In this document: one piece after another, positions 1,539 to 60,253 of the stretch | How positions within the stretch are numbered: the stretch's first letter is position 1 | Layout: every line of letters begins with the position of its first letter | IMG/VR virus record: IMGVR_UViG_3300034108_000503 | Span: 1-64,000 of that record | Source of the DNA: a virus | Strand: one strand, 5' to 3' | DNA: 64,000 bases | Program-made: the position numbers and the translations under genes | The notes under the pieces: model-generated | Told to the model about the DNA's origin: nothing | What the model saw: only the letters and a program-made list of their open reading frames with translations | Database searches by the model: none

Positions 1539-2750
1539 ATGCCAGATCTCACCACCAGTTCAGCGGTCGATACGTTCATGCAGTCTGTTGATCAGGCGGC
1601 AATGAGGTCTGCCATTGGCGTTACGTTCACCCAGCCAACCGGAGCATCTTTGATTCAGTCCGGTGGGTTCCCGGTGACATTGACTGCCACTGGATCCACG
1701 TCTGTCACGCTGCCGACAAGTGGAACCCTGGCATCCACGGCAGATAAGCTGAGTGCGTTTGCTGCCACCACGTCAGATGAACTTCGCGGAGTCATCAGCA
1801 ATGAAACCGGAACTGGATCTCTGGTCTTCGCTACGTCACCAACGCTGGTCACCCCGAATATCGGCGTGGCTTCAGCGACGAGCGTGAATAAGGTATTGAT
1901 CACGGCACCTGCTACTTCAGCCACGCTGACGATCACGAACGGCTCTTCGCTGACGGCATCCGGAAATGTCACACTGGCATCCAGCGGAACAATGACACTG
2001 ACGCTGGGGGCGAACAACATCACGCTCTCAACATCAGGGGCAACGGCAGTCACACTCCCTGTATCGGGAACTCTCGCGACACTTAGCGGATCAGAGACGC
2101 TTTCAAACAAGACCCTTTCAGGGTGTGAACTCGGAGAGCCAATTTCTGGCGCACTCACAAACTGCACGGATTACCCGGTTTCCGCTTTGGCAAATGCCGG
2201 GACAGGGGTAAATACTTTCCTTGCAACACCAAGCAGCGCAAACCTGCGGGCAGCAGTTACTGATGAAACGGGAACTGGATCACTGGTCTTTGCGAATACA
2301 CCAACACTGATTACTCCAAATATCGGAGCAGCAATCGGAGCAAGCCTTGCTGTCTCCGGTGCGCTTACAAGCAGTGGAGGAAATATCGGGTTTACAGCAG
2401 GGGCGGGCGGAACCGTTACGCAAGCCACATCATCGACAACATCTGTCACGATCAACGCAAGATGCGGGATGGTTCAGATGAATGCCAGCGTATCTATTGC
2501 GCCGGAAAACAAAGCTGTATTCCAAGTAGACAACAATACTGTAGCTCAGTCTGATGTCGTAATTCTTTCCATTCGCGGGGGAACCAACGGAGGAAATACC
2601 CAGGCGTCTGTCGTTGAAGTTGGTGCCGGGTATTTCAAGATCTGCGTGTCGAATAATAACGCGAGCGGAGGAACCACCGAAACAGGAACAGCCATCCAGA
2701 TCAACTTTGCCGTATTCAAAGCAACCACGTCCTCAACGCCTCCATCCTGA
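1539..2750 (+). CDS. Tail fibre-like virion protein
   Basis: T/S/G/A-rich beta-type sequence with an internal duplication, ETGTGSLVFA(TS/NT)PTL(V/I)TPNIG, at ~1801 and ~2262. Confidence 0.7.
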   Translation: MPDLTTSSAVDTFMQSVDQAAMRSAIGVTFTQPTGASLIQSGGFPVTLTATGSTSVTLPTSGTLASTADKLSAFAATTSDELRGVISNETGTGSLVFATSPTLVTPNIGVASATSVNKVLITAPATSATLTITNGSSLTASGNVTLASSGTMTLTLGANNITLSTSGATAVTLPVSGTLATLSGSETLSNKTLSGCELGEPISGALTNCTDYPVSALANAGTGVNTFLATPSSANLRAAVTDETGTGSLVFANTPTLITPNIGAAIGASLAVSGALTSSGGNIGFTAGAGGTVTQATSSTTSVTINARCGMVQMNASVSIAPENKAVFQVDNNTVAQSDVVILSIRGGTNGGNTQASVVEVGAGYFKICVSNNNASGGTTETGTAIQINFAVFKATTSSTPPS

Positions 2751-24461: not shown

Positions 24462-24500
24462 CAAACCCCCAGCCGACCGAGATGGTTGACTGGGGGTTTG
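24462..24500. terminator. Hairpin between convergent transcription units
   Basis: CAAACCCCCAGCCGACC-gagat-GGTTGACTGGGGGTTTG lies at the +/- strand switch. Confidence 0.75.
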
Positions 24501-54765: not shown

Positions 54766-55149
54766 ATGCAAGATACACCAAAACCTGATCGTGAGTCCGT
54801 TCTGAAAGAAGCCGAGAAGGCACTTCTGGCAATCAATGATGCCGGATACCACGCTGCCATCGTCGTCGTGGACAATGACAAGAAGGCGGCATGCCTGATT
54901 GGCATGTCCGAGATGAGTGGCACCCGTGCCGATTACATCGGCAAATGCTTTGAGATTCTGATCCGCATGGGGGAAACCATCAACGACAAGATCCCCGATA
55001 CGATGGACGAGATCTTCCTGCAAGCCTGCGATGGTGACAAGGAGAAAGCCGCAGAAGCCCAGCAGATCTTCAAGGAGTGCATTGCCGAAACCCTCGCCGA
55101 GATGGCAATCGGCAATGTTGAGCAGACCGAGAACCAAACCAATAACTGA
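54766..55149 (+). CDS. Hypothetical protein
   Basis: First rightward gene, with typical codon usage. Confidence 0.65.
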   Translation: MQDTPKPDRESVLKEAEKALLAINDAGYHAAIVVVDNDKKAACLIGMSEMSGTRADYIGKCFEILIRMGETINDKIPDTMDEIFLQACDGDKEKAAEAQQIFKECIAETLAEMAIGNVEQTENQTNN

Positions 55150-55159
55150 TTTAGAACCA

Positions 55160-55660
55160 ATGAAAAAAGGAAGAAAGACAACTGAAGAGAAGCTCAAGAA
55201 AGGGCAGGATGCATGGATCCGCGAGAACCTCATCGAGGTTGGCGGGGTCATCTACAAGAAAGCATGCGTCATCGGAGGGAAATACCCATCCGTGCGTATC
55301 CCAGGAAAAACAGTCCGGGTTTCAAAACTCGTCTGGGCGATCCACAATGAAGGCAAGGTTCCCGATGCCCACGTCTGGCACAAGGACGGCGATGTCGAGA
55401 ACAACATCATCAGCAATCTGGACATCGGAACCAAGCCGATCAGCAGAAATCTGATGGTTGAATACAAGAAGCGGATCGCTGAAGGCAAGGACTACCCAGG
55501 GGTCACATGGCACAAGTCGCATGAAAAGTGGATGGCATGGTGGCGCGGACCAAACAAGACCACCATCTACATCGGTCACCACGCCACCGAGAGGGATGCA
55601 GCAGATGCCGTGAAGGAATACTGCGAGAAGAACTGCCCGCAGGACAACCCATACGCCTGA
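55160..55660 (+). CDS. HNH_3-like plus AP2-domain protein
   Basis: LVWAIH...VWHKDGD..NN..SNL; YPGVTWHK...KW.A...YIG...T..DAA. Confidence 0.75.
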   Translation: MKKGRKTTEEKLKKGQDAWIRENLIEVGGVIYKKACVIGGKYPSVRIPGKTVRVSKLVWAIHNEGKVPDAHVWHKDGDVENNIISNLDIGTKPISRNLMVEYKKRIAEGKDYPGVTWHKSHEKWMAWWRGPNKTTIYIGHHATERDAADAVKEYCEKNCPQDNPYA

Positions 55661-56435: not shown

Positions 56436-56510
56436 ATGAATGATCAGGGTGAGATCGTGCCTCCTCCGTATCCCAAAGGGGAATTCTGACCACCACCAGA
56501 AACAACGCAG

Positions 56511-56550
56511 GGCCGCTCCTCGGGATCACCTCTCAGGGAGCGGTCTTTTC
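56511..56550 (+). terminator. Probable terminator
   Basis: GGCCGCTCCT...GGGAGCGGTC followed by TTTT. Confidence 0.5.
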
Positions 56551-56594
56551 ACGTTTGATAATCATCCGCCCCCGCAGTACAGCCATGCCCCACG

Positions 56595-56786
56595 ATGCCG
56601 AAGGGGTTCAAAGTATGTCCGCCAAACTGGAAAGAGGAAGCAGTCAAAGTCTGCATCTTCTGCGGCGAGAACTTCTGGCCCAGCACCCACAGCCACTACC
56701 TCTCCTGGATCAAACGCCAGCACTGCGACCAGAAATGCTCGAAACGCCACGAACAGGCAATCAAGACTGGTTCACGGAAACCTTGA
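56595..56786 (+). CDS. Small Zn-finger protein
   Basis: CIFCG..F ... HCDQKC. A TTGATA-N17-TACAGC promoter-like sequence lies at 56555. Confidence 0.55.
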   Translation: MPKGFKVCPPNWKEEAVKVCIFCGENFWPSTHSHYLSWIKRQHCDQKCSKRHEQAIKTGSRKP

Positions 56787-57128
56787 GATCAGGATCCACG
56801 CAGGCACAGGCTTCATCCTGAAGATACCTCCCGAGTCCGTACCAGCACCGAGGACATGCGTTGTGCGGACATGCCGCACTCCCTCTCCGGTTTCTGTCTT
56901 TCGTCTCAGTCTTCGGTTTCGTTGAGGTCTCTGGATCCATTCAAGCGACCTACGATTCCCGTTGACGATCCGCAAGCACTTCGCATTGTTCCGTCGATTG
57001 CATCTGAACAGTAACCGAAGCCGGGTTCATTCCGCGTGTTGCTGTGGAGGCAAACATAACGCTCGCCCTAGTGCCATACGGGGCGAAGCCAAAAGCAAGA
57101 CGGTGAGCAGTAATGATCACCCGAAGCG

Positions 57129-57170
57129 GAAACCCCCGGATGTCTTCATGACAGCGGGGGTTTCTTTTGT
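57129..57170 (+). terminator. Rho-independent terminator
   Basis: GAAACCCCCG..TGTC-ttcat-GACA..CGGGGGTTTC followed by TTTTGT. Confidence 0.75.
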
Positions 57171-57174
57171 TCTT

Positions 57175-57696
57175 GGATCTCTCGCTCTTCATTCTCTGAT
57201 TCCTACAGGGAGAGGCAAACTTCCGACAACGCGAGCGAGGATCGAAGGCACGATGATCCCTGCGAAGGGAATCATCATGCTCAGAGAGGAGACTTCCGCA
57301 TAACGGTCGCTCGGATCCTGAGTCACGCCGGAAACAAATCCGGACCAGGATTCTCGCCAGCAGGCACGCTCATCGGACTGGCTCAAGTGAATCCCGGCAT
57401 TGACCCCAGCATTGCTGCTGGCGCGTCTTACGTCACACTGATTCATCTGTCCATGTGACTGCCTGGAACCCCACCGATCACTCCCCAGTTCTCAGGCTGG
57501 GCTTTTCGGCTGTCAGCAGGAGGGTCTGCCGAACGTCCGGAATCTTTTCCCTTCGCCACTCGCTTAACGGTATCAGCGCAAAGAAAAACCCCGGCGGGTA
57601 AGAGGACCACCGGGGTTTTCGTTGAGACTTGCCTTTCGGCTAATCACGAAGAAATCTCTCAGCGTTGCCTCTTACACAACGTCGGTCGTACCGTTA
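57175..57696 (-). ncRNA. Candidate large structured RNA
   Basis: No credible ORF, many nested inverted repeats, and two hairpin loops with 8-nt complementarity. Strand is inferred from G-U pairs and is uncertain for the 3' part. Confidence 0.5.
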
Positions 57697-57777
57697 TGCA
57701 CAGGAGGCAGCGAGTCAAGAGTTTTCTGTCGCGCTCCTTCAATCGTCCAGCATCACATCGAATCAATGTATTCCTGA

Positions 57778-57825
57778 TACGCAAAAACGTATCGCTTGAC
57801 ACGGAAAGGCTCTCACCAGAACATC
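57778..57825 (+). promoter_or_regulatory. Operator plus sigma70-like promoter
   Basis: TACGCAAAAACGTA (57778-57791) lies immediately upstream of TTGACA (57796). Confidence 0.55.
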
Positions 57826-57849
57826 GCCGCAGATTCACAAAACAACATC

Positions 57850-58317
57850 ATGGATACCAGTCTCTTCATCGCAGGTGGCAACCCACTTGAATTCGTCACT
57901 TCCGGTCCAACCAAGCTGGCTCTTCCGCAGAGCGGAGGTCTTGAAGTGTACGAAATCGCATCAACCGCAACGACTGTCACCTCCGCTGATTTCGGCAAGA
58001 CGTATCTTCTGTCTGCCGCTGCTGGTTTTACCGTGACCCTTCCTGCTCCCACGTTTGGGGCGCGAGTTTCGTTCATTGTGCGGACAAGCCCGACATCCAA
58101 CGGTTACATCATTGCTGGCACGGCTTTCCGTGGAAGCGTCTCGACCGCTGACGTTGACGGTGCCGATGCCGCAGTCGCAAACAACAACAACCGTGCGACC
58201 CTCGTTGCGAACGCTGCGCTCGCCGGGGACAAGTTGATGTTTGAAAGCGATGGCTCCAGTTGGTTCGTCACCGGACAGTGTACTGCCCGTACTGGAATCA
58301 CTTTCGCGAGCGTGTAA
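57850..58317 (+). CDS. Virion structural / head decoration-like beta protein
   Basis: SADFGKTYLL.AAAG.TVTLPA...G...FIV and GD......DGSSWFV.G; has its own promoter and terminator. Confidence 0.65.
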   Translation: MDTSLFIAGGNPLEFVTSGPTKLALPQSGGLEVYEIASTATTVTSADFGKTYLLSAAAGFTVTLPAPTFGARVSFIVRTSPTSNGYIIAGTAFRGSVSTADVDGADAAVANNNNRATLVANAALAGDKLMFESDGSSWFVTGQCTARTGITFASV

Positions 58318-58342: not shown

Positions 58343-58376
58343 AAAGCCAGCGACCCTGAAAGTTGCTGGCTTTTTT
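58343..58376 (+). terminator. Rho-independent terminator
   Basis: AAAGCCAGCGAC-cctgaaa-GTTGCTGGCTTTTTT. Confidence 0.85.
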
Positions 58377-58402
58377 GTGCCTGTTGATATATACCCGGAA
58401 AG

Positions 58403-60253
58403 ATGGAAGAAATCATCATCACACGAATGCCTGGGGATTCACCGAATCCTCCGATTTTCGACTACGATGCGTGGGGGCAGGATAACGAAGGCAACATATA
58501 TCATGAGCTTTACGGCAGATGGTGGTCCCGTGAAGTCAATGCCACCAGAGACGACATCGAACTCTGGGCATTCAAGGAAGAACTCGGTCCGGAAGACGGA
58601 GGGCTTGGCAAGTACCAGCACCTGCGGGAATTCATCGACCTGACGTGGAACGCTGACGGCAAGACGATTGTCGAATGGAATCCATGGCTGGAGAAACTGC
58701 TGGAGGAAGCATGCTCCAATGAATTCCTCGCAGTCGGTGGGTGTTCGTCATCAGGCAAGTCCTGGGGTGGCGCACTCTACGGCATCGTGTCATTCCTCGC
58801 AGACCCGGAAGGCACGCTTGTGCTGGTGACATCCACATCAATCTCGGCAGCAAAGAAGCGGATCTGGAAAGGTGTCATTCAACTCTGGAATTCCCTCCCG
58901 GAGAAGTACAAGAAGCTGGGCCGGATCAAGCCGTCAGTGAACATGATTCACTACCAGCCACCGGATGGAACGGTCGCATCTGACGCATCCTCAATCAACC
59001 TAGTGGCAGCAGAGCAGAAGCAGGAAGCATCTGCCGTGGCGAAACTGGTTGGTCTCAAGAACAGTACGGTCATCCTGATTGCGGACGAATTGTGCGAACT
59101 CTCACCAGCCGTCATCGCAGCAACGGACAACCTGATCTCCAATCCTAGATTCCAGATGATTGCCATGAGCAATCCAAAGGATCCCGAGGATCCATTCGGA
59201 ATCATGTTCAAACCGAAGGCTGGCTGGAGTACCATCGACGAGACCTGCTACGAATGGGAGACTGACTACGGCAAGGCGATCAGGTTCGACGTTCTCCAGT
59301 CCCCGAACTACCTTGAGCAGGAGTGCATCTACAAGTACATGCTCACCTACGAGAAGATCGAGGCGAAGCGCAAGCAGCTTGGGGATAACTCCTCGGCGTT
59401 CTACCGATTCTACCGTGGATTCATTCCGCTTCAGGGATCCGAGAACAATCTCTACACCACGACGGACTTCAATGCCTACATGGCGGACGACGTTGAGTGG
59501 AAGAATCCGCCGAAGAAGGTCGTCGGAATCGACTTGTCGTTCACATCATCCGGTGACCGCACAATCCTTGCCGTCTGCCTCTTCGGTGAAAGCAAGGAAG
59601 GCAAGAAGTGCCTGAAGTTTGAAAGGTACTATTCCATCAAGGAGAATGCCCAGGACAAGGTAAACCCGAGAACTGAACAGATCGTCGATGAGGTGAAGCG
59701 CATCCTGGACCGGGAAGGCGTGACCTACGACAACGTCGCAATCGACAACTCCGGTGGCGGCATCTCGGCAGTGGACCGATTCACGCAGAAGCTCTCAAGG
59801 GATCTCCTGCGTGTGAACTTCGGCGGGAAGGCATCAGACAAACCAGTCTCGGCAAACGAGCGGATTCCGTCTTGGAAGAAGTACACCAACAGAGTCTCGG
59901 AACTCTGGGGGGTTGGCGTGGAATTCATGCGAGGCGGACAGTTCGCCGGATTCAACACATGCACGGAGCTTATCGGTGAGATGAAAGCCAGACGCTATGA
60001 GATCGTCAAAGGAGGCGACGGTGAGCGGATTATGGTTGAGCCGAAACCGAAGATGAAGGCAAGAACTGGAAGATCGCCTGACATCAGTGATGCCGTCATG
60101 CTCGCCATTGAATTGTGCAGAGCCAAGCACCACTGGGTATCAGAGGAGCGCGGAGAACACGTTCTGTCTAAATCAGATTACCTACAGAAAATAAGAAGGT
60201 TTGATATCAATACCCTTTCCGGTGGTGGTCATGACTGGCAACCATCCTTTTGA
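58403..60253 (+). CDS. terL: Terminase large subunit
   Basis: Walker A GCSSSGKS, Walker B VILIADE, motif C MSNP, RNase H-like VGIDLS..GD.T, AID..G.G and SPDISDA. Confidence 0.9.
   Translation: MEEIIITRMPGDSPNPPIFDYDAWGQDNEGNIYHELYGRWWSREVNATRDDIELWAFKEELGPEDGGLGKYQHLREFIDLTWNADGKTIVEWNPWLEKLLEEACSNEFLAVGGCSSSGKSWGGALYGIVSFLADPEGTLVLVTSTSISAAKKRIWKGVIQLWNSLPEKYKKLGRIKPSVNMIHYQPPDGTVASDASSINLVAAEQKQEASAVAKLVGLKNSTVILIADELCELSPAVIAATDNLISNPRFQMIAMSNPKDPEDPFGIMFKPKAGWSTIDETCYEWETDYGKAIRFDVLQSPNYLEQECIYKYMLTYEKIEAKRKQLGDNSSAFYRFYRGFIPLQGSENNLYTTTDFNAYMADDVEWKNPPKKVVGIDLSFTSSGDRTILAVCLFGESKEGKKCLKFERYYSIKENAQDKVNPRTEQIVDEVKRILDREGVTYDNVAIDNSGGGISAVDRFTQKLSRDLLRVNFGGKASDKPVSANERIPSWKKYTNRVSELWGVGVEFMRGGQFAGFNTCTELIGEMKARRYEIVKGGDGERIMVEPKPKMKARTGRSPDISDAVMLAIELCRAKHHWVSEERGEHVLSKSDYLQKIRRFDINTLSGGGHDWQPSF

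What the first reader, a model, noticed from the sequence alone, without database searches (positions are those of the whole stretch)
57565..57696. 130-nt element with two hairpin loops complementary over 8 nt, one being a terminator
Seen on the - strand: CGTTG-tGTAAGAGG-CAACG, a middle arm with GCC-gaaa-GGC, then AAAACCCCGGTGG-tCCTCTTAC-CCGCCGGGGTTTTT-CTTT. The whole is enclosed by TAACGGTA/TACCGTTA. A U-G pair and the GNRA loop favour the - strand, and a TTGACT lies at 57713-57718. Known: P1 C4 and P4 CI RNAs act by loop-target pairing that controls termination. Inference: a kissing-loop or pseudoknot switch, or an antisense RNA, deciding read-through into the large structured domain.
Basis: partly seen in the sequence, partly recalled or inferred. 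Interest (0 to 1): 0.7.

Follow-up and report, generated by a model that had tools for sequence, protein, structure and literature searches.

The report
Kissing-loop terminator leader RNA in phage
At the start of a large non-coding RNA gene of an uncultured lake phage sits a short RNA whose first hairpin tip base-pairs with the tip of its own transcription-stop hairpin; related phages keep this pairing with seven different letter codes, so it is a real, uncatalogued RNA device that most likely decides whether transcription stops or runs on.

Summary
On the - strand of a 72-kb uncultured lake phage lie a TTGAC promoter-like box, a 5-bp hairpin (loop 57668-57676), a middle hairpin and a strong intrinsic terminator (57585-57619). 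Eight of the nine letters of each of the two outer loops are complementary.

The element is present in 17 of 18 related loci with enough upstream DNA. The two sites covary in seven sequence types. The longest cognate runs are 6-10 nt; 42 non-cognate pairs give mostly 5-6 nt (p = 1.5e-4). No third copy of the words exists in the genome.

Downstream on the same strand lies a conserved structured domain of about 400 nt (40 of 98 predicted pairs are compensatory). Leader types are exchanged independently of that domain.

Rfam gives no match, so this is not a member of c4, IsrK, pRNA or guanidine-IV.

Best reading (inferred, not shown): a cis antiterminator-like contact that gates read-through into the large RNA, working like the guanidine-IV kissing loop but long, ligand-free in appearance and hypervariable. 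Rivals are a type-specific trans-acting short RNA and a purely structural or intermolecular contact.

Notes of this scan describe the same kind of leader in at least 21 other genomes (unchecked AI notes).

The parts
57713..57718 (-). -35-like box TTGACT of the leader's promoter (inferred)
   Evidence: TTGAC is present in 11 of 11 distinct leader sequences, 35-37 nt before hairpin 1. The consensus promoter scan did not call a promoter here.
57691..57696 (-). -10-like hexamer, 16 nt after the -35-like box (weak, inferred)
   Evidence: TA is conserved at the same spacing in all clades. It lacks the usual last T. No transcript start data are available.
57663..57681 (-). hairpin 1: 5-bp stem and 9-nt loop, at or near the 5' end of the RNA
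   Evidence: A short hairpin at the same place occurs in 11 of 11 sequences with different stem letters. There are compensatory changes in 2 of its pairs in clade 2.
57668..57675 (-). site 1 (GTAAGAGG), the 3'-most 8 nt of loop 1
57651..57656 (-). conserved single-stranded linker (GAUUUC-like)
   Evidence: Partly invariant columns between hairpins 1 and 2.
57626..57645 (-). middle hairpin (GAAA loop here; the loop is not conserved)
   Evidence: There are compensatory changes in 2 of its pairs in clade 2.
57585..57619 (-). intrinsic terminator hairpin: 13-bp stem and 9-nt loop
   Evidence: The U-G pair here is C-G in L002.
57598..57605 (-). site 2 (CCTCTTAC), the 3'-most 8 nt of the terminator loop
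57580..57588 (-). U-tract of the terminator. In read-through RNA it is predicted to pair with a purine run further on.
   Evidence: for clade 2, and my reading. The closing pair is C-G here and G-C in clade 2.
57175..57560 (-). large structured domain reached only by read-through (a separate finding of this scan)
   Evidence: In clade 2: 98 predicted pairs, 40 of them with compensatory changes. Here it is nearly identical to L002. The 85-aa ORF inside it is conserved only in L002.

Best explanation
This is the leader of a - strand transcription unit of a probably virulent lake phage. Transcription starts a few nucleotides before hairpin 1. The RNA then forms hairpin 1, a middle hairpin and an intrinsic terminator.

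The loop of hairpin 1 (site 1) is complementary to the loop of the terminator (site 2). Site 2 is made before the 3' arm of the terminator. It can therefore be caught first by site 1 in a loop-to-strand (kissing-type) contact of 8-10 bp. In several types this contact extends into the 3' arm of hairpin 1 and the top of the terminator's 5' arm.

This contact hinders or delays closure of the terminator top, so some polymerases run on into the structured domain of about 400 nt. Where the contact fails or is blocked, the terminator forms and a short RNA of about 105 nt is released. The leader thus sets, or regulates, the ratio of short to long RNA.

Shown: the structure, the selected complementarity and its independence from the flanks. 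Inferred: the transcription start, that termination occurs, and the direction of the effect.
For: 1. Covariation. There are seven site 1 / site 2 word pairs in 11 distinct leaders: GTAAGAGG/CCTCTTAC, GTGTAGGAC/GTCCTACAC, CTGGCC/GGCCAG, ACTAGAGACT/AGTCTCTAGT, TAAGGG/CCCTTA, CTGAGGGG/CCCCTCAG and AAGGGACG/CGTCCCTT. All lie at the same positions.
2. Cognate versus non-cognate. The longest runs are 8, 9, 6, 10, 6, 8, 8 against 42 non-cognate pairs at 4-8 (mostly 5-6), Mann-Whitney p = 1.5e-4. Duplex energies are -9.1 to -17.4 kcal/mol for cognate pairs, against a non-cognate mean of -5.1.
3. Background. Of 63 distinct terminator-like hairpins in all DNA held, all 5 with a loop-to-upstream run of 8 or more are copies of this element.
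4. No third copy of the words occurs in the 72-kb genome or in any flank.
5. All three hairpins are kept with different letters (14 of 37 pairs compensatory).
6. Strand. The terminator stem has U-G here and C-G in L002. The longer U-tract is on the - strand. The element strand folds better in 9 of 11 sequences.
7. A conserved structured domain follows on the same strand, and the U-tract is built into one of its helices. Read-through RNA is therefore probably a functional product.
8. In nascent RNA ending at site 2, the site 1:site 2 helix is in the lowest-energy fold in 11 of 11 sequences, 6-15 kcal/mol better than with site 2 kept free.
9. Precedent. In the guanidine-IV riboswitch a kissing loop with the terminator hairpin hinders the complete terminator stem and gives read-through (passages of PMC11611296).
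Against: 1. The transcription start, strand, termination and any effect of the pairing are inferred from sequence alone.
2. The consensus scan called no sigma-70 promoter at this place, and the -10-like hexamer is poor.
3. The result follows largely from the complementarity itself, so it is not independent evidence.
4. At full length the hairpin-plus-terminator fold is the lowest-energy fold in 9 of 11 sequences; the long-range helix wins only in L005 and L012. A kissing contact with both hairpins intact may therefore not affect termination at all.
5. In L020 the 6-nt partner of loop 1 is a separate hairpin placed before the terminator. The partner thus need not be the terminator. A 9-bp match with one G-U between the hairpin 1 arm and the L020 terminator loop was seen only by eye.
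6. A contact of -9 to -17 kcal/mol needs no ligand, so what would switch it is unknown.
7. L022, a relative with 70% TerL identity, lacks the element.
8. Two of 11 leaders fold better on the opposite strand. One non-cognate pair reaches 8 nt, and one cross-type duplex reaches -12.8 kcal/mol.
Confidence: 0.45

Rival explanations
1. Type-specific trans action. The terminated short RNA displays site 2 (or site 1) in a loop and pairs with the complementary site of nascent or read-through leader transcripts of the same type. This pairing feeds back on termination or on the long RNA. It would work like the P4 CI RNA, like the short IsrK RNA on its own read-through transcript, or like the antisense RNA of pT181-type attenuators. 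The seven types would then be orthogonal groups, so that co-infecting relatives do not cross-regulate.
For: The short RNA would have a 5' hairpin and a terminator hairpin, as stable antisense RNAs do. Both sites are 3'-justified in their loops. Types are nearly orthogonal in predicted duplex energy. Types are exchanged like cassettes: L009 and L011 have downstream domains 99.7% identical but different types, while L012 and L013 share a type with domains only 60.8% identical. In the window versus L002, the two loops are rewritten while the rest of the RNA is almost unchanged. Published analogues exist: P4 CI and IsrK (passages of PMC4825925) and orthogonal engineered pT181 attenuators (PMC3753616, search listing only).
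Against: Both sites sit in one molecule about 60-70 nt apart, so intramolecular pairing should outcompete pairing in trans. There is no third site as in P4, which has seqA, seqB and seqC. No integrase was found and no prophage relatives, so lysogenic immunity is unlikely. The cassette pattern can also come from plain recombination at the conserved flanks. Faster change of the loops than of the stems is seen in only one pair of relatives.
Confidence: 0.2
2. Architectural contact only. The two loops form a tertiary kissing contact that compacts a single RNA of about 0.5 kb. Alternatively they form an intermolecular head-to-tail contact that builds dimers or rings, as in phi29 pRNA or the ROOL and GOLLD cages. 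In either case there is no role in termination.
For: The U-tract and terminator hairpin are integrated into the predicted fold of the longer RNA. In L020 the partner loop is not the terminator. The unit lies next to the packaging genes, with TerL at 58403-60253. pRNA multimerises by kissing contacts between identical molecules (PMC4201828, search listing only). Kissing loops of ROOL and GOLLD first found by covariation proved to be intermolecular (passages of bioRxiv 10.1101/2024.12.08.627333).
Against: A canonical GC-rich stem plus U-tract is kept in 11 of 11 leaders. That is hard to reconcile with an RNA that must always be made full length. The leader type does not co-evolve with the downstream domain. 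Rfam's pRNA, ROOL and GOLLD models give no match. TerL is a full-size large terminase by PHROG, not the small pRNA-dependent ATPase type; this comparison is recalled, not tested.
Confidence: 0.2
3. Chance complementarity next to an ordinary terminator, or a DNA-level inverted repeat such as a protein binding site or packaging site.
For: The region lies between an HNH endonuclease module and the terminase gene, where packaging sites are often found. Both strands fold about equally well in this phage.
Against: There are seven covarying types. The stems are conserved in structure but not in sequence. G-U pairs and the long U-tract fit only the - strand. Background terminators do not show the feature.
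Confidence: 0.03

Closest known systems
Guanidine-IV (mepA motif) riboswitch
   Same: An upstream hairpin loop pairs with the loop of the terminator hairpin in the same leader. The kissing contact hinders the complete terminator stem and gives read-through (passages of PMC11611296).
   Different: There the contact is short, conserved in sequence and formed with guanidine. Here it is 6-10 bp, strong without any ligand by predicted energy and different in every type. It has no Rfam match, and it precedes a phage non-coding RNA, not an exporter gene.
Leader-derived phage immunity RNAs: P4 CI RNA (and P1/P7 c4 and N15 CA RNA, as I recall them)
   Same: They are same-strand complementary words in one leader transcript, tied to transcription termination. 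By my recollection the words differ between heteroimmune relatives with matched changes. The P4 facts are from passages of PMC4825925.
   Different: P4 has three sites and a processed RNA acting in a lysogen. Here there are two sites only, there is no integrase, and there is no Rfam C4 or IsrK match.
IsrK of the Gifsy-1 prophage
   Same: One promoter gives a short terminated RNA and a read-through RNA, and the short form acts on the long form (PMC4825925, abstract and passages).
   Different: IsrK switches on translation of a downstream ORF. Here the downstream part looks non-coding, and no Rfam match was found.
pT181-type antisense-RNA transcription attenuators
   Same: Loop-loop recognition decides between the antiterminator and terminator folds of a leader. 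Swapping loops gives orthogonal variants (PMC3753616, search listing only).
   Different: There the regulator is a countertranscript from the opposite strand, so complementarity is automatic. Here both words are on one strand and must co-evolve.
phi29 prohead RNA (pRNA), and the ROOL and GOLLD RNAs
   Same: These are phage-encoded RNAs with complementary loops that covary among relatives (PMC4201828, listing; bioRxiv 10.1101/2024.12.08.627333, passages).
   Different: Their contacts are intermolecular and build rings or cages. There is no Rfam match here. The partner hairpin here is a canonical terminator.

Membership tests
Intrinsic (Rho-independent) terminator | GC-rich hairpin directly followed by a U-tract on the transcribed strand | tested here: met
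   A 13-bp stem and the U-tract at 57588-57580. The same hairpin is found in 11 of 11 leaders. The simple scan missed it because its loop limit is 8 nt.
Guanidine-IV riboswitch (mepA motif) | hairpin loop complementary to the terminator loop in the same leader | tested here: met
Guanidine-IV riboswitch (mepA motif) | conserved loop nucleotides and a match to the family model | tested here: not met
   The loops differ in all seven types. No Rfam match was found at gathering score or at E up to 10.
Guanidine-IV riboswitch (mepA motif) | ligand-dependent read-through | not testable with these tools
   This needs transcription assays.
C4 antisense RNA of P1/P7 (Rfam C4; accession recalled as RF01695) | match to the covariance model | tested here: not met
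   It is not listed at gathering score over the whole window or at E up to 10 or 5 over 56900-58100.
C4 antisense RNA of P1/P7 | target sites downstream that cover a ribosome binding site (recalled) | tested here: not met
   There is no further copy of either word in the genome. No conserved ORF lies in or right after the leader, because an indel shifts the frame in L002.
P4 CI RNA immunity | one word (seqB) complementary to two sites, seqA upstream and seqC downstream (PMC4825925) | tested here: not met
   There are only two sites.
P4 CI RNA immunity | acts in a lysogen to block replication genes | tested here: not met
   No tyrosine or serine recombinase was found in the 72-kb record. No relatives were found in bacterial genomes.
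phi29 pRNA (Rfam family) | match to the covariance model | tested here: not met
phi29 pRNA | the complementary loops pair between molecules | not testable with these tools
   This needs native gels or a solved structure.
Alphaproteobacterial ar14 (RF02344) | score at or above the gathering threshold | tested here: not met
   21.5 bits against 58.8, E = 0.1.

The most novel reading that the evidence does not exclude
The two loops are an address code. Each phage type carries its own private 6-10-nt pairing, used between molecules. The pairing is either short RNA onto nascent leader, or head-to-tail assembly of the 0.5-kb RNA into multimers. Closely related phages co-infecting one cell would then keep their RNA circuits or RNA assemblies apart. 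This would be an RNA analogue of plasmid incompatibility groups or heteroimmunity, in virulent phages, with new types spreading as recombining cassettes.
Probability: 0.2. Interest if true: 0.85.

Novelty: new variant of a known kind. Interest (0 to 1): 0.66.

Why it matters
Terminator hairpin loops are usually treated as free of information. Here the loop of a terminator is under clear selection to match a hairpin made about 65 nt earlier, and the matching code is rewritten from phage to phage.

If the contact gates termination, it is a minimal control element built from RNA alone. It comes in naturally orthogonal versions, which is what synthetic biologists have had to engineer from pT181. 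It would also explain how a phage doses a large non-coding RNA of unknown function.

It points as well to an uncatalogued class of phage leader RNAs. Notes of this scan (unchecked) describe the same architecture in many unrelated phages. A model for databases and a single well-chosen in vitro test would therefore have wide reach.

Tried and rejected
Known families. An Rfam scan at gathering score over the whole window found nothing. E-value scans over 57200-58100, 56900-57725 and L014:2650-3345 found only chance-level hits, the best being ar14 at 21.5 bits.

Coding leader. The small frames through the leader are not kept. L002 has a 1-nt deletion and a 1-nt insertion that shift them.

Site 1 as a ribosome binding site. 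Most site 1 words are purine-rich, but no start codon follows at a usable distance, and L020's word is not of this kind (my reading).

A constant outside partner such as 16S rRNA. I rejected this because the words differ between types.

Third target site. There is none in the genome or the flanks.

Outer enclosing helix. It is not conserved (see observation check).

GNRA loop as a conserved feature. It is found only in the window and L002.

Second copy in the genome. The terminator at 24462-24500 has a 7-nt match upstream, but it lies in a 3' untranslated stretch and is at chance level.

More homologues. DNA pattern scans of viral contigs gave only contigs already held. blastn against isolated phages gave no match. 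tblastn of TerL gave only a 21% match to a Curtobacterium phage. The scan of bacterial genomes found no relative.

Neighbour gene. The 155-aa gene has no Pfam or PHROG family and only hypothetical look-alikes.

Expression. No RNA holder is listed. 24 runs hold the stretch or part of it, mostly lake water metagenomes. The two runs labelled RNA-Seq are judged probably DNA by the tool, and the contigs laid showed no new loop variants. This says nothing for or against expression.

Column-wise pair counting of the kissing pairs. I gave this up because MAFFT put the loops of different types out of register by one column. I used alignment-free tests instead.

Covariance model. None was built, because a model can only search DNA already held.

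Papers. PMC10690425 predicts 10,006 structured RNAs in IMG/VR contigs, 14 of them upstream of a large terminase family (passages). They returned guanidine-IV and antisense attenuators but no phage leader of this kind. The library lacks most subscription journals.

Full report
What is there. The window is 64 kb of a 72,271-bp virus record that is rated complete. Read on the - strand, 57718-57580 holds a TTGACT box, then a 5-bp hairpin with a 9-nt loop, a middle hairpin with a GAAA loop, and a 13-bp GC-rich hairpin with a 9-nt loop followed by a U-tract. Eight of the nine letters of the first loop (57675-57668) are the exact complement of eight of the nine letters of the terminator loop (57605-57598). 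That word occurs nowhere else in the window or in the rest of the genome. Shuffling both loops reached an 8-nt run in 136 of 100000 trials, and random 9-nt loops in 3 of 100000.

Context. The element lies in an ORF-poor gap of about 925 nt. To its left are + strand genes: an HNH/AP2 endonuclease at 55031-55660, a PHROG 3704 protein, and an ORF without a family. To its right is a + strand gene of 155 aa with no family, then the large terminase at 58403-60253. A TTGACA box for the rightward genes lies back to back with the leader's TTGACT box. No tyrosine or serine recombinase is encoded. No relative of the terminase was found in one genome per bacterial species, and the nearest isolated phage is only 21% identical. 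This is an uncultured, probably virulent lake phage lineage. The runs that hold the DNA are mostly lake water metagenomes.

Relatives.
- Terminase searches gave 18 viral loci and 41 metagenome loci.
- Among relatives with at least 66% terminase identity, 18 loci have enough upstream DNA to judge.
- 17 of these carry the element at the same place and on the same strand: L002, L005, L008-L018, L020, L021, L029 and L030.
- L022 has protein genes there instead.
- L003, L004, L006, L007 and L023 are too short upstream to judge.
- After removing duplicates, 11 distinct leaders remain. The duplicates are L009 and L010 (like L008 in the leader), L015 and L017 (equal to L013), L016 and L018 (equal to L011), and L021 (equal to L012).
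- blastn found nothing in the distant terminase relatives at 25-35% identity.

The pairing is selected.
- In all 11 leaders a 5' site is complementary to a site about 60-70 nt further on. The words differ: seven types were found.
- In ten leaders, site 1 is in the loop of hairpin 1 and site 2 is in the loop of the terminator. Both lie mostly against the 3' side of their loops.
- In an alignment-free test, the longest Watson-Crick run between RNA nucleotides 1-45 and the rest was 8, 9, 6, 10, 6, 8, 8 for one representative of each type. For the 42 non-cognate combinations it was 4 (3 pairs), 5 (14), 6 (22), 7 (2) and 8 (1); p = 1.5e-4.
- With loops found by rule, cognate runs were 8, 8, 6, 8, 6, 6, 8, against 3-7 (mostly 3-4) for non-cognate loops.
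- Predicted duplex energies are -9.1 to -17.4 kcal/mol for cognate pairs, against a mean of -5.1 for non-cognate pairs. The worst cross-reaction is -12.8.
The five with a loop-to-upstream run of 8 or more are all copies of this element. The others give 3-7. Leaders with bulged stems were missed by that strict scan.

It is an RNA of the - strand.
- The three hairpins are kept with different letters. In clade 2, RNAalifold predicts 37 pairs, 14 of them with compensatory changes.
- The terminator stem has U-G here and C-G in L002.
- The long U-tract follows the hairpin on the - strand.
- The element strand folds better than its complement in 9 of 11 leaders; L005 and L008 are the exceptions.
- TTGAC stands 35-37 nt before hairpin 1 in 11 of 11 leaders, with a TA-starting hexamer 16-17 nt after it.
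- Against this, the consensus scan called no promoter, and I have no transcript data.
- Small frames through the leader are broken by indels in L002.

What lies behind the terminator. In clade 2, the 400 nt or so after the terminator are conserved with indels that are not multiples of three. They fold into a consensus of 98 pairs, 40 of them with compensatory changes and many G-U pairs in the - strand sense. The U-tract itself is predicted to pair with a purine run further on, around a conserved hairpin with a UUAAG loop. In the window the corresponding stretch (57560-57175) is almost identical to L002. Its only long ORF is not found in L020 or clade 2. In some clade-2 phages, HNH homing endonuclease genes follow the domain. 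So read-through RNA seems to be a functional product, and a canonical terminator stands in its way.

The leader behaves as a cassette. L009 (type A words) and L011 (type C words) have downstream domains that are 99.7% identical. L012 and L013 share type D words, but their domains are only 60.8% identical. L005 and L030 are 87% identical downstream yet differ in type. Between the window and L002, the two loops are rewritten while the middle hairpin and the terminator stem are almost unchanged. The two sites thus co-evolve with each other and with nothing else that I could find.

How it most likely works. Site 2 is transcribed before the 3' arm of the terminator. In the RNA that exists at that moment, the site 1:site 2 helix is part of the lowest-energy fold in 11 of 11 leaders. 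It is better by 6-15 kcal/mol than any fold with site 2 free. In several leaders it is lengthened by pairing between the 3' arm of hairpin 1 and the top of the terminator's 5' arm. This follows in part from the complementarity itself, so it is not independent proof. Contiguous runs of 9-10 nt take in a stem nucleotide on one or both sides. A contact of this length fits an extended, stem-invading helix better than a pure loop-loop kiss. That is an inference from known kissing complexes of 6-7 bp, which I recall rather than tested.

I therefore read hairpin 1, the long-range helix and the terminator as three competing folds of an attenuator, in which the long-range contact works against closure of the terminator. 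The guanidine-IV riboswitch is a published case where a kissing contact with the terminator hairpin hinders the complete terminator stem and gives read-through (PMC11611296, passages). What sets the balance here is unknown. The contact looks strong enough to form without a ligand, and the loops hold no conserved letters for one. At full length the terminator fold is the lowest-energy fold in 9 of 11 leaders. L020 shows that the loop of hairpin 1 can have a partner hairpin that is not the terminator. I put this reading at 0.45.

Rivals. The first rival is trans action: a short terminated RNA acting on nascent or read-through leaders of its own type, as P4 CI or IsrK do (PMC4825925). This would explain orthogonal types and cassette exchange. 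However, pairing within the molecule should win over pairing in trans, there is no third site, and the phage does not look temperate. The second rival is a purely architectural contact, possibly between molecules as in pRNA, ROOL and GOLLD. This fits L020 and the integration of the U-tract into the larger fold. It does not explain why a canonical terminator is kept in all leaders. The third rival, chance or a DNA-level repeat, is excluded for practical purposes.

Known families. Nothing in Rfam 15 matches. It is not a member of c4, IsrK, pRNA, guanidine-IV or ar14. It works most like guanidine-IV in architecture, and most like leader-derived phage immunity RNAs in having private, covarying words on one strand.

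Other notes of this scan describe leaders with the same architecture in at least 21 other genomes, some in front of homing endonuclease or antirepressor genes. These are unchecked AI notes and I did not compare sequences. One of them led me to the guanidine-IV literature, which I then read myself.

Limits. All function is inferred. No transcript ends, probing or termination data exist for this RNA. The number of independent types is seven, from a few lake data sets. The supplementary tables of PMC10690425, which may list this RNA among its predictions, could not be opened.

Noticed in passing
window 57175-57560 (-); L014:2780-3200 (-) and relatives: There is a conserved structured non-coding domain of about 400 nt directly after the terminator. 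In clade 2 it has 98 predicted pairs, 40 of them with compensatory changes. No Rfam family matches. Its function is unknown.
   Followed up: partly
window 57556-57588 (-); alignment A6 columns 102-144: The terminator's U-tract is predicted to pair with a purine-rich run downstream, around a small hairpin with a conserved UUAAG loop. The closing pair is C-G here and G-C in clade 2.
   Followed up: partly
L009 vs L011; L012 vs L013 (alignment A5): There is mosaic exchange at the leader borders. The conserved promoter block and the post-terminator block flank a variable leader, and leader type and downstream domain have different histories (99.7% identity with different types; 60.8% identity with the same type).
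   Followed up: partly
window 57796-57801 (+) and 57788-57803: A TTGACA box for the rightward 155-aa gene and terminase lies back to back with the leader's box, inside a short inverted repeat. The TTGACA is also conserved in clade 2. It may be an operator.
   Followed up: no
window 57850-58317 (+) and 58345-58377: The 155-aa gene before the terminase has no family in Pfam or PHROGs and is followed by its own terminator-like hairpin. No small terminase gene was recognised.
   Followed up: partly
L014:2181-2948 (-) and 1557-2129 (-); window 55031-55660 (+): HNH_3 plus AP2 homing endonuclease genes occur at variable places around the unit. In L009, L011 and L014 one starts about 30-40 nt after the structured domain, so it would be expressed by read-through.
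   Followed up: partly
L022:300-1520: This relative, with 70% terminase identity, lacks the leader and the domain. It has - strand protein genes and a different, longer gene before the terminase.
   Followed up: no
window 56440-56925 (+): The 161-aa ORF listed here translates to an arginine-rich, low-complexity sequence and has no family. It may not be a real gene. Another note of the scan places a small zinc-finger gene and a structured tail in this stretch.
   Followed up: no
window 57129-57170: A hairpin with a strong T-run on the + strand converges on the end of the - strand unit and may end both transcripts.
   Followed up: no
window 24462-24500 (-): This terminator has a 13-nt loop with a 7-nt complement about 80 nt upstream in a 3' untranslated stretch. 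I judged it to be chance.
   Followed up: partly
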